Part shown: piece after piece, positions 28,517-55,847 of the stretch
How the letters are laid out: each line of letters opens with the position of its first letter
Numbering within the stretch: position 1 is the stretch's first letter
Assembly (NCBI GenBank): GCA_016182555.1
Contig: JACPGJ010000004.1
Coordinates: 14,751 to 78,750 of the forward strand
DNA: 64,000 nt
DNA from: Candidatus Kerfeldbacteria bacterium
Lineage (GTDB): Bacteria; Patescibacteriota; Patescibacteriia; UBA9570; XYC2-FULL-38-9
Direction: 5' to 3'
Translations under genes and position numbers: made by a program
Notes under the pieces: model-generated
What the model saw: the letters and a program-made list of their open reading frames with translations, nothing else
Told to the model about the DNA's origin: nothing
The model's database searches: none

Positions 28517-28557
28517 TACTAAAAATAGTAACTAATGGAATTATATAGTATTCTACT
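28517..28557. promoter_or_regulatory. Two palindromes sharing the TAGTA half-site (TACTA-aaaa-TAGTA at 28517-28530; AGTA-ttc-TACT at 28547-28557) upstream of abiEi; candidate autoregulatory operators
   Basis: Seen in the 66-bp intergenic region upstream of the antitoxin. AbiEi proteins are known to bind paired inverted repeats in their own promoter. Confidence 0.4.
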
Positions 28558-28572
28558 GAGTATGTCAATAAC

Positions 28573-29331: not shown

Positions 29332-29344
29332 AGGGGAAATATCA

Positions 29345-30310: not shown

Positions 30311-30389
30311 AGACGTATAAAGTAAAATCTTAAAATGTGGCTAATGTTACTATAGCACACTCTCGAGATCTATATGACAAAAAATAGCT

Positions 30390-31364: not shown

Positions 31365-31367
31365 AAT

Positions 31368-33153: not shown

Positions 33154-34164
33154 TTATTTATTCATCCACGCTTGAATGAGTAATCGTTTGACATTGACCC
33201 CCTGCCCTTCCACTATCGGTTTTTCATGAATAGCGTAATCTGGATTATTATTCATTTCAATAACAGCGTAGCATTGTTTTGGATTATTCGATGTAATATC
33301 TTCAGTCACTAAATCGATACCAACAAAATCTACCCCTAACGTACGAGCACTATCAATCGCTACTTTTTTAAATCGAGCACTGATACGATCCGTATAATCT
33401 ATTGCTCGCCCACCCTGACTAATGTTTGCCACAGCACGTACTTGCACCTGTTGACCTTTCGGTAATATGGATGAGAGCTTGAGAGAACACCGCTTGAGTG
33501 TCGCTCGCACTTCTGCATCGACGATCAATTGAAAAGCATCTGGGCGATCCTGATTCAATGCAAAAATCAATTCATGAATGGAAGACGTGCCGTCTCCAAT
33601 CAATGTTGCTGGAATTCGCATGACACAAGCAATCACTTTGCCCCGCAATACCAACACACGATGATCATTGCCAGGAACCATCTCCTCAATTAAACAATGT
33701 CGCGGATGTTCTGGGTTCAAGCTTTGCTTTTTTGTATAGAGGCTCAAAACAGCATTCATCGCGGCTTGTAATTCGGAATTATTTTTTATATTGAGATGTA
33801 CCCCCATTCCCTTCCATAAATCAATCGGCTTCACGACGACAGGAAATTTGAGATGTGCTTTTTTTCTTTGCTGAACCGCTTCTTGGGGCGTCGTTGCTGT
33901 GGTCCCTTTTGGCGTAGAAATACCCTGTCGAGAGAGCAACATTTTTGTTAACTCTTTGTTGATCGTAAAATAACTATTGGGTTGAGTATTAAAAAATAAT
34001 TCTTCATTATATAAATACGCTTTTTTTCCTTTGTAACTCAGCTCAATTAAACGAAATTGCTCTGCAATAAAACGCATCTTTACTCCCATCTGCTGCATTT
34101 CCATGCACAGGTTTTTTTTATACGGATGTTCCAGTGAGTTAATATATCTGTTTATTGCGTTCAT
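33154..34164 (-). CDS. ATP-grasp ligase (RimK/GshB-like, a subfamily distinct from paralogs 1-3)
   Basis: 336 aa. VVVKPIDLWKGMGVHL, GNDHRVLVL and DFVGIDLV...VIEMNNNP. The start codon directly abuts the stop of the upstream ORF. Confidence 0.7.
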   Translation of the reverse strand: MNAINRYINSLEHPYKKNLCMEMQQMGVKMRFIAEQFRLIELSYKGKKAYLYNEELFFNTQPNSYFTINKELTKMLLSRQGISTPKGTTATTPQEAVQQRKKAHLKFPVVVKPIDLWKGMGVHLNIKNNSELQAAMNAVLSLYTKKQSLNPEHPRHCLIEEMVPGNDHRVLVLRGKVIACVMRIPATLIGDGTSSIHELIFALNQDRPDAFQLIVDAEVRATLKRCSLKLSSILPKGQQVQVRAVANISQGGRAIDYTDRISARFKKVAIDSARTLGVDFVGIDLVTEDITSNNPKQCYAVIEMNNNPDYAIHEKPIVEGQGVNVKRLLIQAWMNK

Positions 34165-34175
34165 AATACTATAGA

Positions 34176-35147
34176 CTATTCAGTTATAGACGCTCGAGAT
34201 AAATCTGGACCGGAGAAGAATGTAGCTCCTGTAAAAAATAGAAGAATCAGCAACGCATACGTATGGCTTTCAATAGCTCTATACTCTGCGTCTGTTTCTA
34301 GTGTTTCAAAAGATATGTAGTCATCAACAACACTCTGTAGCATTGCCCACGCTTCTGCATACTGAACCTCAAAATGACATAATTTCATACATAATGCAAC
34401 TTCAATAAGTGTATCGATATCGGTGCGCTGGCGGATTTCTTCAATATGATTCGCGAAATACATGATGATCCATTCGTATTGCCCAGGTAAATCGTGCTCA
34501 TAATACTGAGTATCCGCCAAAATAATATGGGTCATGCTATATATCACGGAATGATATTCGTCATCCGTGAGGTCCGCGACTAATTCATCACTGGCGTTAA
34601 AATAGATCTTTCGAAATAGCTGCTGTGCTTCTTCGAATAATGCTGAAGAAACGTGAATGTGTTTGAGAAAGGCTAACGTGTTGAATGTAAAAGAACTATT
34701 ATACCGAATCGCCTCTTCATTGATATACAGCGTTCTCAGCTCATCGAGAGACAATTGGGAAAGGAGTTGCGGATATTGCTGCGCATACATTGTCATATGC
34801 AATCCATATTTCTGTATAAAAAAAAGATGGTGGATAAAACGATCAAAAAATTGTAACTTGGGTTGCTGTTGATACAGGTCTTCTCTTTTTTTTCTGCGTT
34901 CACTGAATTTTTTATAATAATAATGACGCGTATAGGAAAACTGACCAGTTTTCAATAGCGCCAAATCAGCAACAATTCGCGGTTGCTTCACCAAAAAAAA
35001 ATAAAACGCGATAATTTTTTTATACTGCTCTTCACCGGTCACCTTATATGCTCGATAGGCAAAATGCGCCAGGTTATCTAGAGGAAGTGATGCACAGTTT
35101 CTATTGTAGATATCCAGAATGCGTTTTGAAGAGATTGCGCTATGCAT
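34176..35147 (-). CDS. Hypothetical protein (alpha-helical) co-operonic with the ATP-grasp genes
   Basis: 323-aa ORF, 11-nt gap to the downstream ATP-grasp gene, 14-nt gap from xseB. Confidence 0.45.
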   Translation of the reverse strand: MHSAISSKRILDIYNRNCASLPLDNLAHFAYRAYKVTGEEQYKKIIAFYFFLVKQPRIVADLALLKTGQFSYTRHYYYKKFSERRKKREDLYQQQPKLQFFDRFIHHLFFIQKYGLHMTMYAQQYPQLLSQLSLDELRTLYINEEAIRYNSSFTFNTLAFLKHIHVSSALFEEAQQLFRKIYFNASDELVADLTDDEYHSVIYSMTHIILADTQYYEHDLPGQYEWIIMYFANHIEEIRQRTDIDTLIEVALCMKLCHFEVQYAEAWAMLQSVVDDYISFETLETDAEYRAIESHTYALLILLFFTGATFFSGPDLSRASITE

Positions 35148-35161
35148 AGATTGCGGGAATA

Positions 35162-40042: not shown

Positions 40043-40630
40043 TTAGGTTGCATGAAATGTACGTAACGCTTGGCGAACCTGTTCTTCCACCGGCAATGTC
40101 GAGTCAATACCCTGTAATGCGGCCACGGCTTCAGACTGACTATACCCAAGTGCGAGTAACGCATCAATGGCATTCACTGTTGCACGTTCTGTACCCGCCA
40201 CCGAGGCGACACCGTCACTCGCCGCACCAGAAAACGCGACCTGTTCTTTTAAATCCAAAATCATTCGCTGTGCCGTCTTCTTCCCAATCCCGGAAATGCT
40301 CGTCAAAAATGTGGTATCACTATGAATAATAGCCCGCTTCACTTCGTCTGCTGAAAATTGCGACAAGACGGCTAACGCAATTTTTGGCCCCACGCCAGAA
40401 ACACTAATCAACTGCTCAAAAAACTGGCGGTCTTCTGCCACAGTAAATCCATACAAATCCAACGCGTCTTCACGAATATGTTGATACGTATATAATTCAA
40501 CCGCTGCACCAACAATTAACGATTCAGCAACACGCGAAGGAACACGAACACCATACCCAATACCCGCAACGAGCACAATCAGCTCATCTATATCCTTGGA
40601 ATGAAGCGTTCCAGTAATAAATCGAATCAT
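40043..40630 (-). CDS. ruvA: Holliday junction DNA helicase RuvA
   Basis: It has an N-terminal OB domain and an HhH domain (SGVGPKIALAVL...ISGIGKKTAQRMIL). Confidence 0.9.
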   Translation of the reverse strand: MIRFITGTLHSKDIDELIVLVAGIGYGVRVPSRVAESLIVGAAVELYTYQHIREDALDLYGFTVAEDRQFFEQLISVSGVGPKIALAVLSQFSADEVKRAIIHSDTTFLTSISGIGKKTAQRMILDLKEQVAFSGAASDGVASVAGTERATVNAIDALLALGYSQSEAVAALQGIDSTLPVEEQVRQALRTFHAT

Positions 40631-42105
40631 AGGGTTGTCATGGTTGGCGTCGCTGGTTTTGGAGTGCCATTCTTTTTTGCTGCGACTTTTTTGATAGAAC
40701 GCTTTGTGGGGTCAATCAAGAAACGAGTTAAATTCCTATTGCCAATGAGCAAAGGGTATTCTAACCGTGATCGATCGAAGACATTCGGTTCAATACTCAT
40801 TTTATGCCCCGCTAGGAAAATAGACAATGGAATATGAAAACGAATCGAGGCACCATGAGAAGAGTGCACTTTCGATATGCGGGCAATTTGTGGGTGGGCT
40901 TTGGGCAAACGTTGTTGCAAATCTTCTAATAACCGCTTGGCCTCTTCTTCACTTAATTCTTCCGGAATATGTTCTGCCGCGAATGCATCAATCGCGTCTC
41001 CGAAACCGAGTTCGCGAGCGAGCGCCATATCAATCGAACTATCGTCAGCTCCGGTATCAATTTTTGCTTTCACCTGTTTTTGCTTGTCTTCCACACCATA
41101 AACGGTCACCGACTCTACCAATCCCACCACCTGCCGACCCGTCACGCTTGTCACTTCAGCTTGAAAATGACCACCGAATAAATCTTTCGCAATTGTAATC
41201 CCATGTTCTGGGCTTTCAACACGCAATCCTTTAATACGATCCAAACGCTCACGCAAAGGAATCATGTTCGCCACTTGAATACCTAAACCTGGCCGCGCAT
41301 TTAATTCCAATACTACTGGCCCTTTTTTCTTATCGATCGAAATGTCCACCCGCGTGTACTTCAACTTTACCGATTGCGATGCGAGCACCGCTGTTTTCAA
41401 AATTTCTTCCCAATACGGAATACGCATACCGCGCAACAGTACATCATTATCTGGGTGACGTTCAATTTCTCTCTCTCCCCACCACGCCTTCATCACAACA
41501 TGTGTTGTTAAGCCGGTCGAGATATCAATACCGATTGCTAAGCCGCCTTGCATCAAATTTGCTTTTCCACCTGATTTTTTCGTGGGCACGCGAATAAAGG
41601 CCATCACCGGTACCAAATTATAGACAACCACACCAATATCTGGAATGCCGTATTCACCAAAACGTTTGAACAAGGGGTCAATGGATAAGCGTGATTCCAA
41701 AAAAGCAATATCGGGAGTGTTCAATAATGAATAATCACCGTCTAAAATGTCCGCTACATGCACCACAAAATCTTCTACCGTCAATTGCCGTTTATTGGTC
41801 GTTAGCCAATTTCCATTTTTCAATCGGTTGTAGACCACCACAATTCCTTCACCACCTAACCCACGGTTGGGTTTAATCACAAAACTGGAAGGTAGTGATT
41901 CCCAATCAAATTCACGCAATTCATGACGATTCCGAATGACGGCAATTAAATCAGCGGTAGGAATGCCGATGTTTTTCATACACGCTTTCGTCGCTAATTT
42001 ATCATCAGCGCGTTTGCGGGCAGATGGTTTATTCTCGCGCAGGTATATACTGCTGCGCGCATTGATACCAAGGACCGCTTTATGATTTTTCCACATGGCG
42101 CGCAT
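40627..42105 (-). CDS. Fusion protein: a RimK-like ATP-grasp ligase (ATPgrasp_ST type) joined to a retropepsin-like aspartic protease domain (so-called ATP-dependent zinc protease / RimB-like)
   Basis: 492 aa. The N-terminal domain has FVIKPNRGLGGEGIVVV...VLELNARPG. The C-terminal domain has IDTGADDSS (a DTG aspartyl protease motif). Confidence 0.7.
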   Translation of the reverse strand: MRAMWKNHKAVLGINARSSIYLRENKPSARKRADDKLATKACMKNIGIPTADLIAVIRNRHELREFDWESLPSSFVIKPNRGLGGEGIVVVYNRLKNGNWLTTNKRQLTVEDFVVHVADILDGDYSLLNTPDIAFLESRLSIDPLFKRFGEYGIPDIGVVVYNLVPVMAFIRVPTKKSGGKANLMQGGLAIGIDISTGLTTHVVMKAWWGEREIERHPDNDVLLRGMRIPYWEEILKTAVLASQSVKLKYTRVDISIDKKKGPVVLELNARPGLGIQVANMIPLRERLDRIKGLRVESPEHGITIAKDLFGGHFQAEVTSVTGRQVVGLVESVTVYGVEDKQKQVKAKIDTGADDSSIDMALARELGFGDAIDAFAAEHIPEELSEEEAKRLLEDLQQRLPKAHPQIARISKVHSSHGASIRFHIPLSIFLAGHKMSIEPNVFDRSRLEYPLLIGNRNLTRFLIDPTKRSIKKVAAKKNGTPKPATPTMTTL

Positions 42106-43780
42106 GTTTAAAAACGTTTCTAAAACGAATATATTCGACCAACCGCAAACCAGAAAATTTTCCGATAATGTAATTGAAGATCAACGTTAACAAAATGAGT
42201 TCCGGATAGGCAAGCAGCAAGGATTTAAATAATGTCCAATCTCCAATGAAATAACCCAACAACGATAACACCACTGTTTCAATCATCAGCTTGATCGCCG
42301 CTTTGTAGCCTTGTTCAATTTGCACCGAAACGAAATGTTCGGTCAGGACGGTCATAATGAGAATCGGGAAAATAGATATCGCGATGAAACCGGTTTTATG
42401 GAAATAGGCACCAACAAAAAAGAGCGCGAAAATAGCGAGGGCAATAATCGAGAGCACAATCGCCATACGTGGTAAATACAGCAAGCGAAATTTGCGTGCG
42501 AAAATACGCGATAATGTTCCCACCGCGACAACCACAAAAAATACGGTCAAGCCATATTTCAAACCAGTGGACAAAAATGACAATGCAATAACCGTTGGCG
42601 CAAAAATACCGAATGCTTTAATCCCGACTAGCTGGCGTGCGGTCGCAATAATCGTCGCCATCACCGGCAACATGAGAATCAAGAAGAGTGAGTTGATTGG
42701 CACACCGCGGTGGATCATAAAATTCATCGCGTAGGACATGAAATTCAGTGGAGTGAGGCGATCAAATCCACGAGCCGTATACGCACTAATAATTTGGTAC
42801 TCCGCCCGGACCTGCGATAATCGATCTTCCAACCGGCTCGATGTGCCCGCAGCGACCACGTCATCTAAAATATCGTTCGTCGACACCACAATAAATTTCG
42901 GTTGGACCACTTGAAATGCGCGCTGGGCACTTTTGATACTCGACACACGCGGTTGATTATTCACCGCCACAATCGCTTTGGAATCAAAATCGAAACGGTC
43001 AACAGCGGTGTTGCTCAGCGTAGAAATTTGCGATAAGGCGATAAGAGAGTTCAACCCAACATCACCAGAGGTCCAGGTGATAATAATATCTGATGCAATA
43101 AGATCTTCTTCACTTTTCAATAATTGCTGGGCAATATTTTGGACCGTCAAATATTCTTGATCTACGCCAGAATCACGAATGGGAATGACCAATGTTCCGC
43201 GGGTGAGTCCATAATCTTGTAACCGCTGAATCTCTTTTTCTGGCACACTCTGGTCAGAAATCAAAATCACTAGGTGTTCTTGAACAGACACGGTAATACT
43301 ATCTTCACTCGTCTGCGCATCTGCGCCTTCTCCAGTGGTCACCTGCAGTACCACTTTATACGTACCCGCTGATTTATACGCATGGGTTGCATCAATGCCT
43401 TTTGCGCTGGTGTTATCTCCAAAATCCCAGTGATAAAACAATGCGGCTCCTTCTGGCCCCGTCGATGCCGATGCATCAAACAACACCGTGCGACCAATGG
43501 CCACATTTCGATCTTTTCCCGCTTTTGCTTTCAGCAGCGTTTCCTCCACAATGACTTCTGGTATTGACTCTGAAGGGGGCGTTATTTCTTCACCAGTTTG
43601 CTGGTCTGTCGGCGTTGCTGATTCCTGAGCATGAACGTTTACTGGAATGAAGAGAAAGAACAAGGTGAATATGCTCAAGGATAGTATCGCTCGCGAAGCC
43701 CCCGAGAGCAAAAAAGCCCGATGCCTATGAGGGCTTTTTGCGTATGGGGTAGCGAGCACGCAGTTTCTATACATAATCAT
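42080..43780 (-). CDS. Membrane protein with signal peptide, extracellular PKD domain and a C-terminal polytopic (about 7 TM) domain of the type associated with ATP-grasp/retropepsin systems
   Basis: 566 aa. The PKD-like segment is FDASASTGPEGAALFYHWDFGDNTSAKG...YKVVLQVTT. Six or seven hydrophobic helices lie between residues 360 and 560. It overlaps the downstream fusion gene by 26 nt. Confidence 0.65.
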   Translation of the reverse strand: MIMYRNCVLATPYAKSPHRHRAFLLSGASRAILSLSIFTLFFLFIPVNVHAQESATPTDQQTGEEITPPSESIPEVIVEETLLKAKAGKDRNVAIGRTVLFDASASTGPEGAALFYHWDFGDNTSAKGIDATHAYKSAGTYKVVLQVTTGEGADAQTSEDSITVSVQEHLVILISDQSVPEKEIQRLQDYGLTRGTLVIPIRDSGVDQEYLTVQNIAQQLLKSEEDLIASDIIITWTSGDVGLNSLIALSQISTLSNTAVDRFDFDSKAIVAVNNQPRVSSIKSAQRAFQVVQPKFIVVSTNDILDDVVAAGTSSRLEDRLSQVRAEYQIISAYTARGFDRLTPLNFMSYAMNFMIHRGVPINSLFLILMLPVMATIIATARQLVGIKAFGIFAPTVIALSFLSTGLKYGLTVFFVVVAVGTLSRIFARKFRLLYLPRMAIVLSIIALAIFALFFVGAYFHKTGFIAISIFPILIMTVLTEHFVSVQIEQGYKAAIKLMIETVVLSLLGYFIGDWTLFKSLLLAYPELILLTLIFNYIIGKFSGLRLVEYIRFRNVFKHARHVEKS

Positions 43781-45207: not shown

Positions 45208-46884
45208 ATGCCAGAGCACCCATTCAACACACTCAAACACTATTGGCGTCAATATCCGTTACTTGGAACCGCGACCGTATGCTGTTTGTCCGCACTTGCT
45301 TATGCATGGTGGATTGCCGCACCCACCTTTACGGATCCCGATTCGTTCTACCATATACAGATGACACAGCTCATCATGAAGCATCACCGTGCGGTTACCA
45401 ATTTTGTTTGGCTTCCGTATACCACCCTCGCCCATTCTTACGTTGACCATCATTTTCTCTACCACATTTTTCTCATTCCCTTTTTTCTCGTATTCAATGC
45501 CGTGCTCGGCATGAAAATCGCCACCGTGGTGCTTGCCGCGTCTACCAGCGTGTTATTTTACCTTGTTCTGCGTTCACTCAATGTTCGCTACAGCTTCCTA
45601 TTCACCTTATTGTTAATCACCACAGAAGGATTTTCCTTTCGCATAGGCCTCTCCAAAGCGCCCAGTTTCAGTTTTCTGTTTATGATGGCGGGCGCATACG
45701 CCATTATTCACTACAAACCAAAACTCATCGCGATTCTTTCTTTCTTTTTTGTGTGGTCATACGGCGGTTTTTTACTCATGCTCATTTTAACCGGCGTTCA
45801 TGCAAGCGTTGGTTTCTTACGTGCGTATCTTCGTGGAGTACCACTCACGCGACAGGAAAAAAAAGAACGCCTAGTCATGGTTACCGGAGCATTCTCGGGC
45901 ACGCTCATGGGTCTGCTGATTCACCCCTCATTTCCGCAACACCTGCGCTTTTATTGGGAACAAATTATTCAAATTGGTTTAGTCAATTACCGGGGTGTAA
46001 TTGGTGTTGGCGGTGAATGGTATCCCGCGAATGTTCCCAATCTCATTGGCGAACACACCATCTTTTTTTTAGTGCTCATTATCAGTATGATCGCTTTTGG
46101 TTTCACCGCCGGAAAACAACGCGCCTATAGCTGGACCATCGGTGGCATGTTTTTTTTCTTCTTCGTGTTCACGCTCAAATCTCAACGCTATATTGAATAT
46201 GCCATGCCCTGGGGCTATCTCTTCTCTGCGTGTGCCTTACAAGAAAGTGGCTGGCTGAACCATGTACACCACGTTGTGCAACGAGCGCTCTATCGTTCCA
46301 CCGCTCATGTGTTCACGCTCAGCGCCGCGCTACTCCTTATTGCGTATGGGTTGTTTATTATTCCTGGCATGATGATTGATACCAGCCTGAACCTTGAGCA
46401 CGACCTCCACCGTGGCAGATCGGTTGATGAATTTGCGGCAGTAGGAAAATGGCTCCGCGACCACAGCACCACCGGTGACATTGTTTTTCACAGCGATTGG
46501 GATGAATTTCCAGCGTTATTTTACCAAGTACCAAAAGACCGGTTTATTGCCGGCCTAGATCCCACATTTTTTTACCGAGAGCACCCAGCAGATAACGACC
46601 TCTATTGGGAATGGGTGAATATCACCACCGGAAAACAAAGCGACCAGCTTCTAGAAACGCTGCAACAACATTTTCATGCGCGCTTTGTCTTCATCGCCGA
46701 CGGACACAACAGTATGCGTGCTAACTTCATTCGTGATGGTCGTTTCCGAAAAGTGTATGAAGATGATGAAGCGACTATTTTCCGGGTTCCGCGCCGTGCA
46801 CAAGACGTGGAGCAGAGCCAAACGGCCGATGATACACCAATAACTCCGGTGTCGCCTGTTCCAGAATCAAATCCTGCGCTGTAA
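45208..46884 (+). CDS. Polytopic membrane protein, glycosyltransferase-like (PMT/ArnT-type fold suspected)
   Basis: 558 aa with about 12 TM helices and a DPDSFYH motif near the N-terminus. Its 3' end overlaps the convergent downstream gene by 110 nt. Confidence 0.55.
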   Translation: MPEHPFNTLKHYWRQYPLLGTATVCCLSALAYAWWIAAPTFTDPDSFYHIQMTQLIMKHHRAVTNFVWLPYTTLAHSYVDHHFLYHIFLIPFFLVFNAVLGMKIATVVLAASTSVLFYLVLRSLNVRYSFLFTLLLITTEGFSFRIGLSKAPSFSFLFMMAGAYAIIHYKPKLIAILSFFFVWSYGGFLLMLILTGVHASVGFLRAYLRGVPLTRQEKKERLVMVTGAFSGTLMGLLIHPSFPQHLRFYWEQIIQIGLVNYRGVIGVGGEWYPANVPNLIGEHTIFFLVLIISMIAFGFTAGKQRAYSWTIGGMFFFFFVFTLKSQRYIEYAMPWGYLFSACALQESGWLNHVHHVVQRALYRSTAHVFTLSAALLLIAYGLFIIPGMMIDTSLNLEHDLHRGRSVDEFAAVGKWLRDHSTTGDIVFHSDWDEFPALFYQVPKDRFIAGLDPTFFYREHPADNDLYWEWVNITTGKQSDQLLETLQQHFHARFVFIADGHNSMRANFIRDGRFRKVYEDDEATIFRVPRRAQDVEQSQTADDTPITPVSPVPESNPAL

Positions 46885-48295
46885 TCAATTGCGCTAATCG
46901 TTGTTGTGCGCCAGGGAAACGCGATAACTCTTGCTGATCAACAACCAACCAATCGATATATGCTGGAGGAATGTAGGGTTCATTCGAATAATGTTGAGTG
47001 CCGTGCAATAAGTGTATTGTTGGATATATCCGCTCTCTGTTCGATAGTTGAGGATACAGCACCGGAGAAACCATCACCGCATCATCTGGAGCAATGTCTT
47101 GAAGCACACTCACCATCGTTGCTCGGTCTCGATCGTGACGATGCATGAATAATACGCCGAAGCGATACCATGGGCCGAAAAGAGTTACCTGCACCAGAAT
47201 AATTGCTAGGAGACCCATACGGCACATCGAATATAGGTAAATGTAGTCTGCTTTCGTGTCCAACCAAGTGAATAGTTTCGTCACACCGTAGAGTGAAGCA
47301 ATCATCAGCCACGGAAAAATAATCGCGGAATAATGCGCATGAAAAAATGCATCAAATAACGATCGATCGATCAACAAATATTCTACAGCTGGCCCAGCCA
47401 ATGGCAAAAGATAACGCGGACGAAGCAATGGTAAAAAGGCACATGAGGAAAAAAGCAATACAAGAACAAGGACATGATCTTCGCCAAATGCCCCATGAAG
47501 TGTTTGGATTGGATGAGAGAACATAAATCGACCATATTCCCAAGGTCCATTCCCCATCCAAGAATAAAATGCACCAAATTTTAGGGCCTGTTTTGGAGCA
47601 AGAGCTGCACCGAAACGTGCCATGATAATGAACCACAGCACACTCACCGCCATGATACCAAAACCGATCCAACGCCATCGCTTGTTGTTTTGCATACCCT
47701 GACCAAATACCAATAACAGCAATCCCACACCAGATGTCATGACTGCCACATCATCACGCACCAACAACAATAGAATAAATATCACTATGGTACGAAGACG
47801 CTGGCCGCTTATCATACACAACCACCACCACAACGTAAGCGGCAACACAAAAGAGAGCGCATGAAATTCAAATAACACTACCGCATGAGTCAACGGATGC
47901 AAAAGATATACCACCACACTGACAAGCGCCAACCGATCACGCCCACGCACAGACAAACCTTGGGCAATTTGCCGCGCCAAGAGATAGGTGGGAATAGCGC
48001 CGGTCGCGATAACCGCGGTTTGCAATACCAACAACGTCATCGGGTGTTGCACCAACGCATACACCGGGAGTAATAACAGCACGCCCCATTCACGATGATC
48101 AACCAGATATGAATACGGATTAAAAGAATATTGAAACCACCGCCCATGCACGCTATTCCAAAATACTTGATTATAAATGCCTAAATCATATTGGTTGTAA
48201 AAAAAGAAATGATACTGAAACCAGCAAGCTACTATAGAAAAAACAAAAAAAACTATTACCAGCCTCCATACACGTTTTGGAACATTCAACAACAT
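46775..48295 (-). CDS. DUF2079-family polytopic membrane protein (predicted membrane glycosyltransferase-like)
   Basis: 506 aa. YNQYDLGIYNQ motif. Multiple TM helices. Confidence 0.6.
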   Translation of the reverse strand: MLLNVPKRVWRLVIVFFVFSIVACWFQYHFFFYNQYDLGIYNQVFWNSVHGRWFQYSFNPYSYLVDHREWGVLLLLPVYALVQHPMTLLVLQTAVIATGAIPTYLLARQIAQGLSVRGRDRLALVSVVVYLLHPLTHAVVLFEFHALSFVLPLTLWWWLCMISGQRLRTIVIFILLLLVRDDVAVMTSGVGLLLLVFGQGMQNNKRWRWIGFGIMAVSVLWFIIMARFGAALAPKQALKFGAFYSWMGNGPWEYGRFMFSHPIQTLHGAFGEDHVLVLVLLFSSCAFLPLLRPRYLLPLAGPAVEYLLIDRSLFDAFFHAHYSAIIFPWLMIASLYGVTKLFTWLDTKADYIYLYSMCRMGLLAIILVQVTLFGPWYRFGVLFMHRHDRDRATMVSVLQDIAPDDAVMVSPVLYPQLSNRERIYPTIHLLHGTQHYSNEPYIPPAYIDWLVVDQQELSRFPGAQQRLAQLITAQDLILEQATPELLVYHRPFGSAPRLVHGAEPGK

Positions 48296-48378: not shown

Positions 48379-48780
48379 CTAGACAAAATAGACCATACCT
48401 TGAATATTAGCGTTGGTAGACTCAGCCAACTTACCAATAACGTATGTTGCGAGCGCCCAAGAGATCATCACGAATGCCAAACCGATAACAGCGGCAACCA
48501 ATAATTTCTTGGCTTTATCTACTTTACCAGGGTCTCCTGCTGCAGTCATCCATTTGAAACCACCAATAATAATGATGATGACGGCGACCAGCGCGAGTAA
48601 CGAAAGTGCGAGATTTACGATATCAGTCACAATATTCACTGGGTCATTTGTCCCAAGATTATCAGAGATTTCATCATAACCATCACCGCTCGTCGTAATC
48701 TGAGCGAATGCTGTTGTTGCTGTTGCCACCCATCCTAATGTGATAGCGGCACCAGAAGCGAATTTTTTTGAAATTTTCAT
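48379..48780 (-). CDS. TrbC/VirB2-like (T4SS-type) pilin family protein, paralog 1
   Basis: Signal peptide, then a hydrophobic helix, then GGFKWMTAAGDPGKVDKAKKLLVAAVIGLAFV. A strong SD (GGAGGTGA, 6-nt spacer) precedes the ATG at 48780. The ORF is open to 48873. Confidence 0.65.
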   Translation of the reverse strand: MKISKKFASGAAITLGWVATATTAFAQITTSGDGYDEISDNLGTNDPVNIVTDIVNLALSLLALVAVIIIIIGGFKWMTAAGDPGKVDKAKKLLVAAVIGLAFVMISWALATYVIGKLAESTNANIQGMVYFV

Positions 48781-48862
48781 TGTTTCACCTCCTTTCTGAA
48801 AGTTAATGAATAAAAACAGAGGTTTCTGTATTCCTGTATTGTGACAGATCATGAAATAACGG

Positions 48863-49219
48863 TCAATATCCAAGATATTTCACCACAGACTTTGTGACCG
48901 CCCATGCAATCATCACCAGCACGATCCCAAACATCGCACCCATTAACAAGCCACGGGCCTTATCTGCCACCGGGTGATTCCCTGAAGATGTTAACAATTT
49001 AAACGTGCCGACCATTAAACAGATAATCGATATCAAAGCAATCAACGATAATATCAAATTCACGGTTGTAATAATCAGATCACCGGTTCCTGAATCATCT
49101 GGCGTATCAACCGCTGTATTATCCGGCACATATCCACCGTTGATATTCGTTTGCGCAGAAGCGATTGCTGGCGCAACAAAAAAAATACCAACAAAAAAAA
49201 TACTACTCACTATACTCAT
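48863..49219 (-). CDS. TrbC/VirB2-like pilin family protein, paralog 2
   Basis: Signal peptide (MSIVSSIFFVGIFFVAPAIASA) and conserved core (MVGTFKLLTSSGNHPVADKARGLLMGAMFGIVLV). The ORF is open to 49522. Confidence 0.6.
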   Translation of the reverse strand: MSIVSSIFFVGIFFVAPAIASAQTNINGGYVPDNTAVDTPDDSGTGDLIITTVNLILSLIALISIICLMVGTFKLLTSSGNHPVADKARGLLMGAMFGIVLVMIAWAVTKSVVKYLGY

Positions 49220-49328
49220 CTTGGTGATACGTGAAACACCTATATACATACAATAAAAAAATGCACTCTTATTGTGACAAAGAATATCATTGCGGTCAAT
49301 GTAGCGGAACGTTGCTAAACAGATAAAG

Positions 49329-50102
49329 ATGTGGTATAGTGTATTCAATATGATGCAACGAATATTTTTTATTCTGGTCGGAATCTGCGCTCCTATTGCT
49401 GCCTCTGCCGCAACTTCCAAATTATTGAGTGGGGATACTGGGAAAGCATTGGATAGTACCGGTCTTGGCAAAACCGACCCGGTCAAAGCTACCGCATTTA
49501 TTATCAATACCGTTTTGGGCATTATCGCGTTGTTGGCGGTTGCATTACTTATTTATGGTGGGTTTCGGTATATGTCATCTCGCGGAAATCCTCAGGAAGT
49601 AGATAAAGCAAAAAATGTACTCAAGGCAACCATTGCTGGTTTGGTATTAGTCATGGTGGCGTGGTCCATTACTACCTACGTCATCGGAAAAATTCAAAAA
49701 GCAACCAACGGAGAATCTACTTCTTCGACACCAACGTCAGAAGAAGACCCAGATGTGCAGCAAGATACTGAAGATAATACCTACGAAATAGGATATAATG
49801 ATGGGTGGAATATCGGATATGGTGATGAAGGTGAGGGCGGATATGCAGACGGGTATGGCAATGGGTATGAGACCGGTTATAATACAGGATATACAGAAAC
49901 GGGTATATATCAAACAAGCTACGATGATAGTGATAAAGGAACAGATGTGGAATATGACGAATCTATTGGTTTAGGTGATTATGCTGATGGGTATGCTGAT
50001 GGAAAAAATGACGGCGAGCAATCGGGATATTATTATGGTTATGAAGATGGATATGCAGACGGGTACGACACAGGATGGGCTAAGAAAGTGAATGGTTTAT
50101 GA
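49329..50102 (+). CDS. TrbC/VirB2-like pilin family protein, paralog 3, with a C-terminal Gly/Tyr/Asp-rich repetitive tail
   Basis: Core GGFRYMSSRGNPQEVDKAKNVLKATIAGLVLV. The tail of about 120 aa is built from GY(A/N/E)DG-type repeats. Confidence 0.65.
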   Translation: MWYSVFNMMQRIFFILVGICAPIAASAATSKLLSGDTGKALDSTGLGKTDPVKATAFIINTVLGIIALLAVALLIYGGFRYMSSRGNPQEVDKAKNVLKATIAGLVLVMVAWSITTYVIGKIQKATNGESTSSTPTSEEDPDVQQDTEDNTYEIGYNDGWNIGYGDEGEGGYADGYGNGYETGYNTGYTETGIYQTSYDDSDKGTDVEYDESIGLGDYADGYADGKNDGEQSGYYYGYEDGYADGYDTGWAKKVNGL

Positions 50103-50494
50103 TAAACACTCTCGTAAAAAAACAATGGCACATCATCTTCTCTCGTCTATTGTTTATTGTTGTTGGTAGCTGTTATCTATCCTTACCAGCCCATGCTACT
50201 GAATTGATTGATGAAGATGCTGCCAGTAGCGCTACTACACTTGGCACACAATCACCCGTAGAAGTCGCGGCGTTAATTATTAGCGCATTTCTTGGTTTGC
50301 TGGGCATTATCGCGGTCACCTATATTATTTATGCCGGTTTTTTGTGGATGACTGCCGGTGGTAACCCACAAAAAGCAGACAAAGCGAAGGGTATTTTGAA
50401 ATCGGCGGTGATTGGGTTAGTGTTGATCATGGCTTCATACAGTCTCGCGACCTACGTTTTTGGCGCATTAGAACAAGCAACCGGTTATCAATAA
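50099..50494 (+). CDS. TrbC/VirB2-like pilin family protein, paralog 4
   Basis: Core AGFLWMTAGGNPQKADKAKGILKSAVIGLVLI. ATGA overlap with the upstream gene. Confidence 0.65.
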   Translation: MINTLVKKQWHIIFSRLLFIVVGSCYLSLPAHATELIDEDAASSATTLGTQSPVEVAALIISAFLGLLGIIAVTYIIYAGFLWMTAGGNPQKADKAKGILKSAVIGLVLIMASYSLATYVFGALEQATGYQ

Positions 50495-50495
50495 T

Positions 50496-50876
50496 ATGTA
50501 CAAAACACGCACCATGAAAAAATGGATTCCTCTCGTTTTTGAGAGTGTTCTATTGTTCACGGTCGGGTTCATTCTCTTGCACCCGTACATCGCATTTGGT
50601 GTTGAATTTGATCCAGGCGGAACCCTCAAAAGCTCCACCGAACTTTCGAATACCGATGCGAATACCTATGTATTCACGATTATTAAAGGTTTTTTAACCC
50701 TTGTTGGAGTCGTGGCGTTGGTGCTCATTATCTATGGTGGTTTTATTATTCTTATTGCGCGTGGTGACAACAATAAAATTCAAAAAGGAAAAGATACACT
50801 CTTTTGGGCGATTATTGGTACACTCATTATTCTCGCTTCCCTCGGTATTGTAAATTTCCTCGAAGGAATTTTGTAA
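50496..50876 (+). CDS. TrbC/VirB2-like pilin family protein, paralog 5 (more divergent)
   Basis: Core GGFIILIARGDNNKIQKGKDTLFWAIIGTLIIL. Confidence 0.55.
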   Translation: MYKTRTMKKWIPLVFESVLLFTVGFILLHPYIAFGVEFDPGGTLKSSTELSNTDANTYVFTIIKGFLTLVGVVALVLIIYGGFIILIARGDNNKIQKGKDTLFWAIIGTLIILASLGIVNFLEGIL

Positions 50877-50882
50877 GACGTA

Positions 50883-51224
50883 TTACCCTAACGCCTTGAA
50901 GAGCGTGCTGGCAAGAGCGTAAGAACCAAAAATGATAATCAGGCCGACGAGTGCCCAGGTAAGGGTATCGCGGCCTTTTTTAACGTAGTTGGAATCGCCA
51001 TGAGAAATCAGCATCATCACCCCCCCATAAATAAAAATAAGCAACGTAATGCCGCCCACTACACCAAGAAGTGTTTTGATTACATTCCCAATTAAGGCAT
51101 TTGGGTCTTTTGCGCCATTCTCACCCAATGGATTTGCTAGCTCACTCGCAAAGACGGGTAAGGCTGTACAAAAATACCAAACAACGAAAGCGGTGAATAA
51201 GCGATGAAAAAATGTTTTGCTCAT
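50883..51224 (-). CDS. TrbC/VirB2-like pilin family protein, paralog 6
   Basis: Core GGVMMLISHGDSNYVKKGRDTLTWALVGLIII. Confidence 0.6.
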   Translation of the reverse strand: MSKTFFHRLFTAFVVWYFCTALPVFASELANPLGENGAKDPNALIGNVIKTLLGVVGGITLLIFIYGGVMMLISHGDSNYVKKGRDTLTWALVGLIIIFGSYALASTLFKALG

Positions 51225-51243
51225 ACAGACAAATAATTATTGA

Positions 51244-51993
51244 TTAAGGTGTGCAGCACACTTGACCCGTGGGACACAACGATTCATCTGTACTTTCTGT
51301 GCCGATACAATAGTTATTATCACCATCCACATCTTTAACACAATAGGCGCCTGTATTCTGTGTATTTCCGAGGTACTGACAATCGGGCATACAAGAGCGG
51401 CCGAGACACACACAATTCTCTGCACAACTCTCTGTCGTGCATGTTTGCCCATCTGGCGTACCAGAGCATACTTCCGTATCATCAGATTCGTCTGCAACAG
51501 TGCTGGTTGAAGAAGCTCCGGTATCTTTTGGCGCACGTTCTTTGCAATATTCCGACCAATGGTTTTTCCCAAATAGTTTCACATCTGTCCCAATTTTCGA
51601 CGCATCTAACCCCAAAAATGCAGCGATAATAAAATTGATTAACACATACGACACAAACACCAGCGTAATACCAATAATCGACCCCGTCATCACGGCTTTG
51701 CCTTTATTTACACGGTCAGGCTTACCGGCAGAAATCACAAAATAGAACCCTCCAAGGACAAACGTAAATAATGCGACGCCGCTTGCCCATTGTTGAATCA
51801 CCGAAGCCGCGTTGCCAACAAAGTCGAGTATATCACACGTATCACAACTTCCATCTCCTACGGCACAATCGGGTAAAAATGTTTGGTCTGCAGCATGCAC
51901 ATCTGGAGTAATGCTCAAGGAGAACCCAAAGAGAATGAGGGCGATGAAGAAAGAAAAAATGAAACGACGATTCTTCATATTATTGCTTTTCAA
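51244..51993 (-). CDS. TrbC/VirB2-like pilin family protein, paralog 7, with a Cys-rich C-terminal tail
   Basis: Core GGFYFVISAGKPDRVNKGKAVMTGSIIGITLV. The C-terminal 110 aa carry about 14 Cys. An alternative start is the Met at 51978. Confidence 0.6.
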   Translation of the reverse strand: MKSNNMKNRRFIFSFFIALILFGFSLSITPDVHAADQTFLPDCAVGDGSCDTCDILDFVGNAASVIQQWASGVALFTFVLGGFYFVISAGKPDRVNKGKAVMTGSIIGITLVFVSYVLINFIIAAFLGLDASKIGTDVKLFGKNHWSEYCKERAPKDTGASSTSTVADESDDTEVCSGTPDGQTCTTESCAENCVCLGRSCMPDCQYLGNTQNTGAYCVKDVDGDNNYCIGTESTDESLCPTGQVCCTP

Positions 51994-55189: not shown

Positions 55190-55490
55190 TAGAACTTCTG
55201 CATCTTGAAGCGAGCGGAGAGATTTTTAGGTGCATGGCGCACCGCAAAGGTCTCTCCGACGAGGAGGTGATATGCAAAGATTTGTGAGAGTACCGGCCTC
55301 GCCTGTCGTGGCGACCGAACCGGCGAGTGTTCGATGCCCGCCGGTGATTCCCGTGTCTTCTCGGAAAGAAATTCCCGAGAAGGCAGTTGAGCTCTCGCGC
55401 GATCTGCGCGCCCGCCGAGAGGCGCGCAGTGACTGAGAGAGCCGAGGGGTCGGAAACCACACCGTTGTGGCATCCGACCCTTCTTTTTTT
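55190..55490 (+). ncRNA. GC-rich (about 60%), heavily base-paired element of unknown class. It may be a structured ncRNA, a 3' UTR, or a horizontally acquired sORF (54 codons, 55272-55436, with consensus SD GGAGGTGA)
   Basis: It contains multiple perfect GC hairpins: GGAGAGA...TCTCTCC, GGTGCatggGCACC, ACCGGCG...CGCCGGT, CTTCTCGG...CCGAGAAG and CTGCGCGCC...GCGCGCAG. It ends in a strong terminator. No Rfam-like conserved motifs (RNase P, SRP, tmRNA) were recognised by eye. Confidence 0.3.
55447..55490 (+). terminator. Strong rho-independent terminator (GGGTCGGAaaCCACAccgtTGTGGcaTCCGACCC + TTCTTTTTTT)
   Basis: Seen directly in the sequence. Confidence 0.65.
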
Positions 55491-55520
55491 CCAAGCGTAG
55501 TGAGCCCTGGCTGCACAGGC

Positions 55521-55847
55521 TTAAAACAAAGGCATCTGCTGTTCAATACTTTTTGCCTTTTCTTGAACGCGTTGTGCGGCAGAAATAAAATCTTTCAATG
55601 GTAAATACTCTGTGGTTAAACCAAAATATTTTACTTTATTTTTCACCTCTTGTTCTTCAATAATTCCAGCGTCTTTTAACGGTTTAATATAATACGTGGA
55701 TATATTTGATTGAAATGTACCGAATTTTTTTGCAATGTCTTTTTGAGTGACTGTTCGTTCGTGGTCTATGATATAACGTAAAAATTCTTTTCGTTTATCC
55801 GTGAATGCAATGGTCTGTTCAATGCGTTCCCATAATTCTTTTCCCAA
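55521..55847 (-). CDS. Winged-helix DNA-binding protein (putative transcriptional regulator)
   Basis: 108 aa. TQKDIAKKFGTFQSNISTYYIKPLKDAGII is a wHTH-like segment. Confidence 0.5.
   Translation of the reverse strand: MGKELWERIEQTIAFTDKRKEFLRYIIDHERTVTQKDIAKKFGTFQSNISTYYIKPLKDAGIIEEQEVKNKVKYFGLTTEYLPLKDFISAAQRVQEKAKSIEQQMPLF

What the first reader, a model, noticed from the sequence alone, without database searches (positions are those of the whole stretch)
49690..50102. Pilin paralogs carry contrasting C-terminal decorations: a Gly/Tyr/Asp-rich repeat tail and, at 51244-51650, a Cys-rich knob
Paralog 3 ends in about 120 aa of GYxDG-type repeats (...GYNDGWNIGYGDEGEGGYADGYGNGYETGYNTGYTETG...GYADGKNDGEQSGYYYGYEDGYADGYDTG). 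These are encoded by imperfect DNA repeats that could undergo slippage. Paralog 7 ends in a 110-aa region with about 14 Cys (CSGTPDGQTCTTESCAENCVCLGRSCMPDCQ...CVKDVDGDNNYCIGTESTDESLCPTGQVCC). Such add-ons on a pilin scaffold look like tip adhesins or receptor-binding modules and are candidates for host or partner recognition.
Basis: seen in the sequence. Interest (0 to 1): 0.55.

Follow-up and report, generated by a model that had tools for sequence, protein, structure and literature searches.

The report
Decorated secretion-system pilins in Kerfeldbacteria
In an uncultured ultra-small bacterium, two of seven neighbouring genes for small pilus-type membrane proteins carry real outward-facing tails, one a conserved disulfide-rich knob and one a strain-specific glycine/tyrosine repeat, and such add-ons prove common in these bacteria though I found no description of them in the papers I searched.

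Summary
Window 48379-51993 holds seven paralogs of the VirB2/TrbC-like type IV SECRETION pilin family (Pfam PF18895), not type IV pilus pilins, in a Candidatus Kerfeldbacteria MAG. Paralog 3 has a 137-aa acidic tail with two blocks of period-4 (Y/W)xxG repeats. Paralog 7 has 16 Cys, 12 of them in a 77-aa C-terminal module. Both ORFs are uninterrupted, and two independent assemblies from other sequencing runs reproduce them base for base.

The DNA repeats are too degenerate for slippage: the longest exact repeat is 17 nt. The variation seen is presence or absence. The G/Y tail is missing from the orthologs in four syntenic arrays, including one 76% identical.

The Cys knob is conserved at the end of the array in four lineages, in one or two copies. 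It comes with a conserved "3+1" Cys pattern flanking the membrane hairpin.

In 81 Patescibacteria loci plus this window, 92 of 320 pilin-domain ORFs carry tails of at least 30 aa. Most are Cys-rich, and some are 900-2000 aa with Ig-like domains.

My best reading is modular pilins that display contact modules outside the cell. Display on a pilus and any binding function are inferred, not shown. Structure prediction of both tails was uninformative.

The parts
48379..48780 (-). Pilin paralog 1 (133 aa), undecorated
   Evidence: PF18895 48.1 bits (cut-off 26.6). NF045849 40.8 bits (cut-off 40).
48863..49219 (-). Pilin paralog 2 (118 aa), undecorated
   Evidence: PF18895 22.6 bits, below the cut-off. 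My own core HMM gives E 1.3e-15. The ortholog in L001 is syntenic.
49329..50102 (+). Pilin paralog 3 (257 aa; NCBI HYV32_01350 starts 7 aa later): signal peptide, helical hairpin core, then a 137-aa tail
   Evidence: PF18895 48.8 bits. NF045849 41.1 bits. AF2 gives the hairpin pLDDT of about 85. Named.
49689..49781 (+). S/T/E/D-rich linker of paralog 3 (residues 121-151)
   Evidence: The start of this linker is shared with the tail-less ortholog P0002.
49782..49904 (+). Repeat block 1 of paralog 3 (residues 152-192), period-4 (Y/W)xxG units
   Evidence: Weak FliH glycine-repeat hits fall on residues 125-191.
49905..49979 (+). Acidic spacer between the two repeat blocks (residues 193-217)
49980..50075 (+). 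Repeat block 2 of paralog 3 (residues 218-249), eight Gly in unbroken period-4 register
   Evidence: Pfam Yae1_N 23.9 bits on residues 218-249, below the cut-off of 27.5. Regex scan. TRF 12-nt x 2 arrays.
50099..50494 (+). Pilin paralog 4 (131 aa), undecorated; its start overlaps the stop of paralog 3
   Evidence: PF18895 48.9 bits
50496..50876 (+). Pilin paralog 5 (126 aa), undecorated
   Evidence: PF18895 38.0 bits. NF045849 40.4 bits.
50883..51224 (-). Pilin paralog 6 (113 aa), undecorated
   Evidence: PF18895 35.3 bits and PF04956 TrbC/VirB2 34.4 bits (cut-off 27.9)
51244..51978 (-). Pilin paralog 7 (244 aa from the ATG at 51978; NCBI HYV32_01370), Cys-rich. Residue numbers for paralog 7 in these parts count from the upstream TTG at 51993 (249 aa).
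   Evidence: PF18895 23.6 bits, below the cut-off. My core HMM gives E 1.8e-15. The ortholog in L005 scores 32.5 bits. Full-length homolog P0005, E 1e-37.
51835..51867 (-). N-terminal Cys motif C-x6-C-x2-C-D (residues 43-53) just before the first membrane helix
   Evidence: Conserved in four orthologs and in four further pilins
51544..51546 (-). Codon of Cys150 in the conserved post-hairpin linker (LFG..W..YC); it is the '+1' of the 3+1 Cys pattern
   Evidence: Invariant in the alignment of four orthologs. Same pattern in the 4-Cys pilins of L064, L054 and L075.
51247..51477 (-). 77-aa module with 12 Cys (the 'knob', residues 173-249)
   Evidence: Five aligned copies from four genomes share the Cys framework. 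An HMM built from them matches only those four pilins among 2,070 ORFs.

Best explanation
The locus is an array of seven VirB2/TrbC-like type IV secretion pilin paralogs in a Kerfeldbacteria (Patescibacteria) genome. Two of them are modular pilins.

Each protein has a cleavable AxA-type signal peptide, two hydrophobic helices, and a short basic loop (G-[ND]-P..V.K[AG]K) that stays on the cytoplasmic side. Anything added after helix 2 therefore ends up outside the cell. If the secretion system polymerises the hairpins as it does in F-type pili, the additions end up on the outer face of the filament.

Paralog 7 belongs to a conserved subfamily with three features:
- It sits at the end of the array.
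- It has a 3+1 Cys pattern, which requires at least one disulfide between the N-terminal segment and the post-hairpin segment if all four Cys are oxidised.
- It carries one or two copies of a 10-12-Cys module, most likely a compact disulfide-bonded surface knob used for contact with a partner cell or surface.

Paralog 3 has recently gained a strongly acidic Gly/Tyr/Asp-rich tail with a GX3 repeat pattern. This tail is probably flexible. It would change the surface chemistry or stickiness of whatever structure the pilin joins.

I expect the five undecorated paralogs to supply the bulk subunits and the decorated ones to be incorporated at low stoichiometry.

Shown: family membership, ORF integrity, the conservation pattern, the presence/absence and copy-number variation, and how widespread such fusions are.
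Inferred: membrane topology, disulfide bonding, incorporation into a pilus, and a binding function.
For: Family:
- PF18895 scores above its cut-off for five of the seven paralogs. PF04956 scores above its cut-off for paralog 6.
- NF045849 'pilin-like conjugal transfer protein' reaches its cut-off for paralogs 1, 3 and 5.
- All seven align over signal peptide, helix, basic loop and helix.
- AF2 gives a helical hairpin with pLDDT of about 85 for both decorated paralogs.

Real and translated:
- The ORFs are uninterrupted and the tail DNA is codon-structured.
- Two other assemblies are identical to the window.

Conservation of paralog 7:
- Orthologs at 33-37% identity in L081, L005 and L002 keep the N-terminal C..C..C motif, the linker Cys and the knob Cys framework.
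- The knob-bearing pilin occupies the same terminal position in four syntenic arrays.
- Cys counts in the mature proteins are even: 16, 16, 14 and 28.
- The module is present twice in P0005/P0008.

Lineage specificity of the paralog 3 tail:
- The 76%-identical ortholog stops at 146 aa, 12 nt before the next pilin gene.
- The positional orthologs in L081, L005 and L002 have tails of only 10-43 aa with no G/Y repeats.
- No similar tail occurs in about 0.9 Mb of related loci or in the metagenome scan.

Generality:
- 92 of 320 pilin-domain ORFs have tails of at least 30 aa and 65 have at least 100 aa. Of 84 tails of at least 50 aa, 63 are Cys-rich.
- Pfam confirms T4SS_pilin plus Big_5, TIG and fn3 in proteins of 887 and 1,903 aa.

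Literature:
- Both termini of F-type pilin lie on the pilus exterior (PMC7555446).
- Arrays of 2-11 VirB2-like pilins are known in Patescibacteria (PMC12102498).
- One such array is essential in S. epibionticum (PMC10633639, PMC12857230).
- CPR genomes commonly encode an MdbA-like oxidoreductase and VKOR for extracellular disulfides (bioRxiv 10.1101/335083).
Against: - No pilus built from these proteins has been seen in any Patescibacterium.
- No VirB4-, VirB6- or VirD4-like gene turned up in the window. I scanned 30 ORFs, including every ORF of at least 500 aa. The syntenic 29.7-kb contig has none either.
- AF2 gives no confident structure for either tail: pLDDT of about 40 for the G/Y tail and 40-60 for the knob.
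- Foldseek against the PDB gives nothing below E = 0.8.
- The G/Y tail is absent from a close ortholog, so it is dispensable for the core function.
- Add-ons of hundreds to thousands of residues in other family members are hard to fit on every subunit of a tightly packed filament.
- Paralogs 2 and 7 fall below the PF18895 curated cut-off when scored on their own.
Confidence: 0.5

Rival explanations
1. The hairpin is only a membrane anchor. The decorated proteins, and perhaps the whole family, stay in the cytoplasmic membrane and hold surface domains on the cell rather than on a filament.
For: - Family members with extensions of 500-1,900 aa containing Ig-like domains resemble anchored adhesins more than filament subunits.
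- No T4SS genes lie near this array.
- No pilus of this type has been observed in Patescibacteria; the reviews describe it only as a possibility (PMC12857230).
Against: - The hairpin is homologous to true pilus subunits.
- Arrays mix several undecorated 110-135-aa paralogs with decorated ones. That mix makes sense for a filament with major and minor subunits, and less sense for simple anchors.
- In other Patescibacteria the pilin genes lie near virB4 in 1,135 of 1,948 assemblies (PMC12102498).
Confidence: 0.25
2. The G/Y tail of paralog 3 is a GX3 (Yae1/Lto1/FliH-type) helix-helix association module. Its two blocks would pair with each other, or with tails of neighbouring subunits, bundling or stiffening the structure.
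For: - The Gly register at period 4 is unbroken over eight Gly in block 2.
- Yae1_N scores 23.9 bits, E 3.3e-5.
- FliH glycine-repeat models hit at E 1.4e-8.
- GX3 motifs mediate Yae1-Lto1 complex formation (PMC4523923).
Against: - All these scores are below the curated cut-offs (27.5 for Yae1_N; 180-293 for the FliH models).
- Only 18% of the repeat residues are good helix formers.
- AF2 predicts no helix there and gives pLDDT of about 40.
- The known GX3 proteins are cytoplasmic.
Confidence: 0.1
3. The G/Y tail is a recent, nearly neutral low-complexity extension. It would have arisen by loss of the stop codon plus expansion of a 12-nt unit, and it has no specific function.
For: - It is absent from the 76%-identical ortholog and from three other syntenic arrays.
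- It has no relatives in the word-index search of 5.8 billion protein clusters or in the metagenome scan.
- It is predicted to be disordered.
Against: - The units have diverged to 52% DNA identity while keeping the Y/G register.
- Gly is encoded by all four codons (GGA 9, GGT 7, GGG 5, GGC 3). This points to retention of the amino-acid pattern after the expansion.
- The gene keeps its overlap with the downstream pilin gene.
Confidence: 0.25
4. The tails are artefacts, caused either by a frameshift or by a misassembled repeat.
For: None found.
Against: - Two independent assemblies from other runs are identical to the window.
- The longest exact repeat is 17 nt, which I judge too short to confuse an assembler.
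- Orthologs of paralog 7 in three other genomes have the same architecture.
Confidence: 0.02

Closest known systems
VirB2-like pilin arrays of Patescibacteria (Pfam PF18895), including the essential six-pilin array of Southlakia epibionticum (PMC12102498, PMC10633639, PMC12857230)
   Same: Same protein family, same phylum, and the same habit of tandem, sequence-divergent paralogs. The published arrays have 2-11 genes with mean identity of about 25%. Here there are seven genes, 23-43% identical to paralog 3.
   Different: - The papers I read do not mention C-terminal add-ons.
- This array is not next to virB4 or other T4SS genes within the 64-kb window.
- Two members carry extracellular tails.
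TrbC/VirB2/TraA conjugative pilins of diderm bacteria (PF04956; F, T, P and H pili)
   Same: - The signal peptide, helix, basic loop, helix hairpin is shared.
- Paralog 6 passes the PF04956 cut-off.
- In F-type pili both termini lie on the outside of the filament (PMC7555446). That position is where the add-ons here would sit.
   Different: - The classical pilins are about 70 aa when mature and carry no added domains.
- Some are cyclised head to tail (TrhA; PMC12037004). Here a 3+1 Cys pattern might link the two ends through a disulfide instead; this is an inference.
- The host here is a monoderm.
Mbov_0395 family pilin-like conjugal transfer protein of Mycoplasma ICEs (NCBIfam NF045849)
   Same: Paralogs 1, 3 and 5 reach the curated cut-off of 40 bits. 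This is another monoderm T4SS context, and it fits the reported MPF-FATA ancestry of the Patescibacteria T4SS (PMC12102498).
   Different: The model covers 80 aa and describes only the hairpin. The scores are just at threshold (40.4-41.1 bits). The model has no tails.
Modular type IV pilins such as PilB of Streptococcus sanguinis (PMC8179133)
   Same: Same design logic: a pilin module with a functional, adhesive module grafted onto its C-terminus, used as a minor subunit.
   Different: The scaffold is unrelated: a type IV pilus pilin with a class III signal peptide and a different assembly machine. This is analogy only.
VirB2 paralog arrays of Bartonella and Anaplasma (as cited in PMC12102498)
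   Same: Tandem diversification of VirB2 genes, thought to serve surface variation or interaction with different host surfaces.
   Different: Those paralogs vary in sequence but do not gain added domains.
GX3 glycine-repeat segments of Yae1/Lto1 and FliH (PF09811; NF004270; PMC4523923)
   Same: Period-4 Gly repeats flanked by acidic residues. The hits are weak but not random.
   Different: - The scores are below every curated cut-off.
- The composition is rich in Tyr, Asn, Thr and Asp, which are poor helix formers.
- The tail is extracellular, not cytoplasmic.
- No helix is predicted.

Membership tests
PF18895 T4SS_pilin (VirB2-like pilins of Patescibacteria) | Score at or above the Pfam gathering cut-off (26.6 bits) | tested here: met
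   Paralogs 1, 3, 4, 5 and 6 score 35.3-48.9 bits. Paralogs 2 (22.6) and 7 (23.6) fall just below. Both match my core HMM at E of about 1e-15, and the L005 ortholog of paralog 7 scores 32.5 bits.
PF18895 / VirB2-type pilin | Signal peptide followed by two hydrophobic helices joined by a short basic loop | tested here: met
   The alignment of all seven shows AxA-type signal peptides..IYGGF, the G[ND]P..V.K[AG]K loop and a second hydrophobic helix. AF2 places helices at 51-83 and 88-127 in paralog 3 and at 47-82 and 87-121 in paralog 7, with pLDDT of about 85.
VirB2-type pilin | Encoded with, or near, T4SS machinery (VirB4, VirB6, VirB3/PrgI) | tested here: not met
   Pfam scans of 30 window ORFs, including all of at least 500 aa, found no T4SS component. 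Smaller ORFs were not all scanned. The syntenic contig L081 has none either. The rest of the genome is outside the window and could not be checked.
VirB2-type pilin | Polymerises into an extracellular filament | not testable with these tools
   This needs microscopy or biochemistry. It has not been shown for any Patescibacterium (PMC12857230).
PF04956 TrbC/VirB2 | Score at or above the gathering cut-off (27.9 bits) | tested here: inconclusive
   Met by paralog 6 only (34.4 bits). Paralogs 4 and 5 score 18.1 and 21.3, and the others give no hit.
NF045849 Mbov_0395 family pilin-like conjugal transfer protein | Score at or above the curated cut-off (40 bits) | tested here: inconclusive
   Paralogs 1 (40.8), 3 (41.1) and 5 (40.4) just reach it. 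Paralogs 2, 4 and 6 score 22.9-35.5. Paralog 7 gives no hit.
Type IV pilus (T4P) pilins | Class III signal peptide with a prepilin-peptidase site (G/FxxxE) and a single N-terminal hydrophobic helix | tested here: not met
   The sequences show AxA signal-peptidase-I-type sites and two membrane helices. No type IV pilin family appeared in the Pfam results.
PF09811 Yae1_N (deca-GX3 motif) | Score at or above the gathering cut-off (27.5 bits) and ten consecutive GX3 units | tested here: not met
   23.9 bits on residues 218-249. The longest unbroken run is eight Gly, that is seven units. Block 1 is interrupted.
FliH (NCBIfam NF004270 and relatives) | Score at or above the curated cut-off (180-293 bits) | tested here: not met
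   The best score is 34.6 bits, and it covers only the glycine-repeat part of the model.
Any described Cys-rich domain, adhesin or toxin family | Significant match of the 12-Cys module by sequence or by fold | tested here: not met
   - No Pfam family other than the pilin core at E <= 0.1, and no NCBIfam hit.
- No PDB sequence hit at E <= 10.
- Foldseek against the PDB gives a best E of 0.84, driven by the helices. The model of the knob is low confidence, so the fold test is weak.

The most novel reading that the evidence does not exclude
Patescibacteria may use the VirB2-like hairpin as a general display scaffold. This would be a T4SS counterpart of the modular type IV pilins. Extracellular modules ranging from 50-aa Cys knobs to 1,900-aa arrays of Ig-like domains would be grafted onto the C-terminus of pilin paralogs, building host recognition directly into the essential secretion-system pilus.

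Within this picture, the paralog 7 subfamily would replace the head-to-tail cyclisation of some conjugative pilins with a disulfide that ties the N-terminal segment to the post-hairpin segment (the 3+1 Cys pattern).
Probability: 0.3. Interest if true: 0.7.

Novelty: new variant of a known kind. Interest (0 to 1): 0.5.

Why it matters
The T4SS and its pilin array are essential in the one genetically tractable Patescibacterium. Their role is described as completely unknown (PMC11665869, PMC12857230).

If the decorated paralogs are incorporated into a filament, the add-ons are the obvious candidates for what the filament touches. They would be a handle on host specificity in a phylum that makes up much of uncultured bacterial diversity.

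The variation seen here is what one expects of host-interaction surfaces:
- A whole tail is present or absent between 76%-identical orthologs.
- The Cys module occurs in one or two copies.
- Tails in other lineages range from 50 to 1,900 aa.

The 12-Cys module and the 3+1 Cys pattern are concrete, testable structural predictions. The practical message for annotation is that many long 'hypothetical' Cys-rich surface proteins of Patescibacteria begin with a T4SS pilin hairpin.

Tried and rejected
- Word-index homolog searches. Paralog 3 returned only itself, one tail-less ortholog and one distant pilin. Paralog 7 returned only itself. A profile of the three Cys-module copies found nothing, so that search was wasted.
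- Full HMMER scan of 1.84 billion representatives with the Cys tail. It found one true relative (P0005) and one doubtful repeat protein (P0006, E 1.4e-4), which I discarded because it shares only a YC..TDP-like stretch.
- PDB sequence searches with both tails: no hits.
- AF2 of both decorated paralogs. The cores are confident but the tails are not.
- Foldseek against the PDB with both models returned only generic helical hairpins with E above 0.8. The AFDB library was unavailable.
- The metagenome scan for close relatives of paralog 3 found nine loci, all at most 48% identical. None matched the tail, so repeat copy number could not be compared beyond the two identical assemblies.
- The first genome scan, with the nine-sequence alignment, failed for lack of a conserved stretch. 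It worked with a five-sequence alignment.
- Slippage hypothesis: rejected on the DNA evidence.
- Artefact or frameshift hypothesis: rejected.
- I considered an EF-hand or RTX-like calcium-binding motif for the Asp-rich repeats. By eye the spacing does not fit either consensus, and I did not test it formally.
- I looked for a function for the conserved 558-aa membrane protein next to the array and found none in Pfam, NCBIfam or PDB sequences.
Full report
**1. Observation check**

Paralog 3 (49329-50102, +, 257 aa):
- It continues for 137 aa beyond its pilin core.
- The tail has an S/T/E/D linker (residues 121-151), a first block of period-4 (Y/W)xxG units (152-192), an acidic spacer (193-217), a second block (218-249) and a short basic end.
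- The 137-aa tail contains 26 Gly, 19 Tyr and 19 Asp and has a net charge of -26.
- The i,i+4 spacing of both Gly and Tyr exceeds every one of 20,000 shuffles.

Paralog 7 (51244-51993, -, probably starting at the ATG at 51978):
- It has 16 Cys, 12 of them in the last 77 aa.
- That is 15.6% Cys against 0.62% in other proteins of the window.

**2. Are the tails real and translated?**

- Both ORFs are uninterrupted.
- The stop codon of paralog 3 overlaps the start of paralog 4.
- The tail DNA has a clear codon structure, with GC by codon position of 0.54/0.42/0.27. One of the two alternative forward frames has 20 stops.
- The same protein sequences occur on Logan assemblies of two other sequencing runs (SRR12113419 and SRR12113422). 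The fetched DNA, 2.6 kb and 6.7 kb, matches the window without a single mismatch.
- The longest exact DNA repeat in the tail is 17 nt, which I judge too short to confuse an assembler.
- The artefact and frameshift readings can be set aside.

**3. What the genes are**

All seven neighbours belong to the VirB2/TrbC-like pilin family of type IV secretion systems, not to type IV pilus pilins.
- PF18895 scores above its cut-off for five of them. PF04956 scores above its cut-off for paralog 6.
- The NCBIfam model for a pilin-like conjugal transfer protein of Mycoplasma ICEs just reaches its cut-off for three.
- They align over a signal peptide, a hydrophobic helix ending in IYGGF, a short basic loop (G[ND]P..V.K[AG]K) and a second hydrophobic helix. 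They are 23-43% identical to paralog 3.
- AF2 models the hairpin with pLDDT of about 85 in both decorated paralogs.
- NCBI names the source as a Candidatus Kerfeldbacteria MAG (HYV32_01350 and HYV32_01370, contig 146,769 bp).

Arrays of 2-11 such pilins are already described in 383 Patescibacteria assemblies. One is essential in Southlakia epibionticum (PMC12102498, PMC10633639, PMC12857230). The array as such is therefore a known kind of feature.

**4. The G/Y tail of paralog 3**

- At the DNA level the repeats are degenerate. TRF reports only two 12-nt x 2 arrays. The 12-nt units are 52% identical on average. Gly is encoded by all four codons while the amino-acid register is kept. Slippage is therefore not a credible source of variation.
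- What varies is the whole tail.
  - A 76%-identical ortholog on a syntenic contig (L001) ends at 146 aa, 12 nt before the next pilin gene.
  - The positional orthologs in three further syntenic arrays (L081, L005, L002) have tails of 10-43 aa with no G/Y repeats.
- Nothing similar was found in about 0.9 Mb of related loci, in the metagenome scan or in the word-index search of 5.8 billion protein clusters.
- The tail resembles GX3 glycine-repeat segments. Yae1_N scores 23.9 bits and FliH models hit at E 1.4e-8. Every score is below its curated cut-off.
- Only 18% of the repeat residues favour helix, and AF2 predicts no secondary structure there, with pLDDT of about 40.
- I read it as a recent, lineage-specific, probably flexible acidic Tyr-rich extension. 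A GX3-type helix association is a minority alternative.

**5. The Cys knob of paralog 7**

- A full HMMER scan of 1.84 billion representatives with the tail found one true relative, P0005.
- P0005 is a full-length homolog (34% identity, E 1e-37) that carries the module twice. A 90%-cluster sibling, P0008, does the same.
- P0005 lies in a locus (L081) syntenic with the window. The shared order is rlmH-like methyltransferase, nucleotidyltransferase, solute-binding protein, Cys-pilin, five more pilins, a large membrane protein, YebC, RuvC, a PKD/7TM-transglutaminase protein and an ATP-grasp protein.
- The genome scan added two more orthologs, in L005 (another Kerfeldbacteria MAG) and L002. Both are again the last gene of a six-pilin array with the same strand pattern.
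- All four proteins share:
  - LPxC-x5-6-C-x2-C-[DE] just before helix 1;
  - LF..W..C after helix 2;
  - a module with a conserved framework of 10-12 Cys ending in LC-x4-7-CC.
- Mature Cys counts are even in all four: 16, 16, 14 and 28.
- An HMM built from the five module copies matches only these four proteins among 2,070 ORFs.
- The module matches no Pfam, NCBIfam or PDB sequence.

**6. The 3+1 Cys pattern**

- The N-terminal C..C..C motif recurs in eight pilins of the survey. In those whose tails I read it is paired with a Cys about 20-30 aa after helix 2; L062 has its first post-hairpin Cys at about 40 aa.
- Three of them (in L064, L054 and L075) have exactly these four Cys and no knob.
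- With three Cys on one extracellular segment and one on the other, full oxidation requires at least one disulfide between the N-terminal and C-terminal segments.
- This is an inference from counting, not a structural result.
- It would tie the two ends of the hairpin together. Some conjugative pilins achieve that by head-to-tail cyclisation (TrhA; PMC12037004).

**7. How common are decorated pilins?**

I built a core HMM from the window paralogs, iterated it once, and scanned all ORFs of at least 70 aa in 81 fetched loci plus the window.
- 320 ORFs carry the pilin core.
- 92 have at least 30 aa after it, 79 have at least 60 aa, and 65 have at least 100 aa.
- 60 of 80 loci have at least one pilin with a tail of 50 aa or more.
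- 63 of the 84 such tails are at least 3% Cys.
- Ten of 39 small tails end in C-x3-9-CC, against 1 of 484 control ORFs.
- The largest are 900-2,000 aa. Pfam confirms T4SS_pilin above its cut-off, followed by Big_5, TIG and fn3, in two adjacent proteins of a complete Falkowbacteria chromosome.
- Only the window protein has a G/Y/D-rich tail.

Caveats: the loci were chosen by similarity to the core of paralog 3, so this is a sample and not a census. ORF starts are mechanical, which does not affect C-terminal lengths.

**8. Mechanism**

Topology follows from the family. The signal peptide is cleaved, the basic loop stays inside, and both ends face out. In F-type pili both termini lie on the filament exterior and the loop lines the lumen (PMC7555446). 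A C-terminal add-on is therefore extracellular in the membrane form, and external in the filament form.

My best reading has four parts:
- The five bare paralogs are bulk subunits.
- The decorated ones are minor subunits that display contact modules.
- Paralog 7 is a conserved, disulfide-stabilised knob.
- Paralog 3 is a young, strain-specific surface modification.

CPR genomes commonly encode an MdbA-like oxidoreductase with VKOR, which could form the disulfides (bioRxiv 10.1101/335083).

What is not shown: that any of these proteins polymerise, that the Cys are oxidised, or that the tails bind anything. No T4SS machinery gene was found in the window or in L081. The main rival, a hairpin used simply as a membrane anchor, remains open.

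**9. Comparison with what is known, and novelty**

- The array belongs to a described class.
- The papers I read on that class do not mention C-terminal extensions. Targeted literature searches found no description of decorated VirB2-like pilins. The library is incomplete, so this absence is not proof.
- The nearest functional analogy is the modular type IV pilin (PilB of S. sanguinis; PMC8179133), on an unrelated scaffold.
- I therefore file the finding as a new variant of a known kind. It has a novel small Cys-rich domain family, with four members seen here, and an unusual G/Y repeat tail seen only in this strain.

**10. Structure and fold searches**

Both AF2 models are confident only in the hairpin. 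Foldseek against the PDB returned generic helical hairpins with E above 0.8. The AFDB library was unavailable. It needs a better alignment than the tool allowed me to submit.

Noticed in passing
window 55200-55550: A GC-rich island (58-62% GC in a genome of about 43%) with no credible ORF. It folds into a chain of near-perfect hairpins, with MFE z-scores of -5.8 (+ strand) and -5.5 (- strand). It has no Rfam match at gathering or relaxed thresholds. It may be an undescribed structured RNA or a hairpin-repeat element.
   Followed up: partly
L067 3166-5829 and 5863-11574 (Falkowbacteria chromosome CP066698); similar pairs in L028, L034, L041, L046, L047, L052, L077: Two adjacent giant genes (about 890 and about 1,900 aa) each begin with a T4SS_pilin hairpin above the Pfam cut-off. 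They continue with Cys-rich regions and Big_5, TIG and fn3 domains. This pair recurs in many lineages.
   Followed up: partly
L064 1113-1688, L054 3878-4303, L075 3802-4278 (and window 51835-51867 plus 51544-51546): A '3+1' Cys pattern: C-x5-6-C-x2-C-[DE] before helix 1 and one Cys about 20-30 aa after helix 2. Some pilins have exactly these four Cys. This implies a disulfide between the N- and C-terminal extracellular segments, possibly a counterpart of pilin cyclisation.
   Followed up: partly
L015, L016, L029, L054, L070 and others (tails listed): Ten of 39 short pilin tails end in C-x3-9-CC followed by at most 10 residues, against 1 of 484 non-pilin ORFs. There may be a wider family of small CC-terminated knobs on Patescibacteria pilins.
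   Followed up: no
window 45208-46884 (+) and L081 8394-9974 (-): A conserved multi-pass membrane protein of 526-558 aa sits next to the pilin array in both syntenic loci. It has no Pfam, NCBIfam or PDB sequence match. In the window a DUF2079 membrane protein (46775-48295) lies between it and the array. The decorated pilins have S/T-rich linkers, so a role in surface-protein glycosylation is a guess worth testing. I have no evidence for it.
   Followed up: partly
window about 27100-35150, 40627-43780: A run of about eight consecutive minus-strand genes of 210-335 aa. The two I scanned are RimK/ATP-grasp-like. There is also an ATPgrasp_ST + Zn-protease gene and a PKD + 7TM-transglutaminase gene. 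The last two are also syntenic with the pilin array in L081.
   Followed up: no
window 49329-50102, residues 57-158: A weak hit (E 3.3e-4, 19.6 bits, far below the cut-off of 150) to NF045890, the pLS20_p028 family conjugation-system transmembrane protein of 377 aa. This could be a precedent in Gram-positive conjugation for a pilin-like hairpin with a long C-terminal region.
   Followed up: no
window 20353-23313 (-): A 986-aa protein with subtilase (Peptidase_S8) and fn3 domains, possibly another surface protein of this genome.
   Followed up: no
window 50876-50883: Paralogs 5 (+) and 6 (-) converge with only 6 nt between their stop codons. No convincing terminator was found there in the simple scan.
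   Followed up: no
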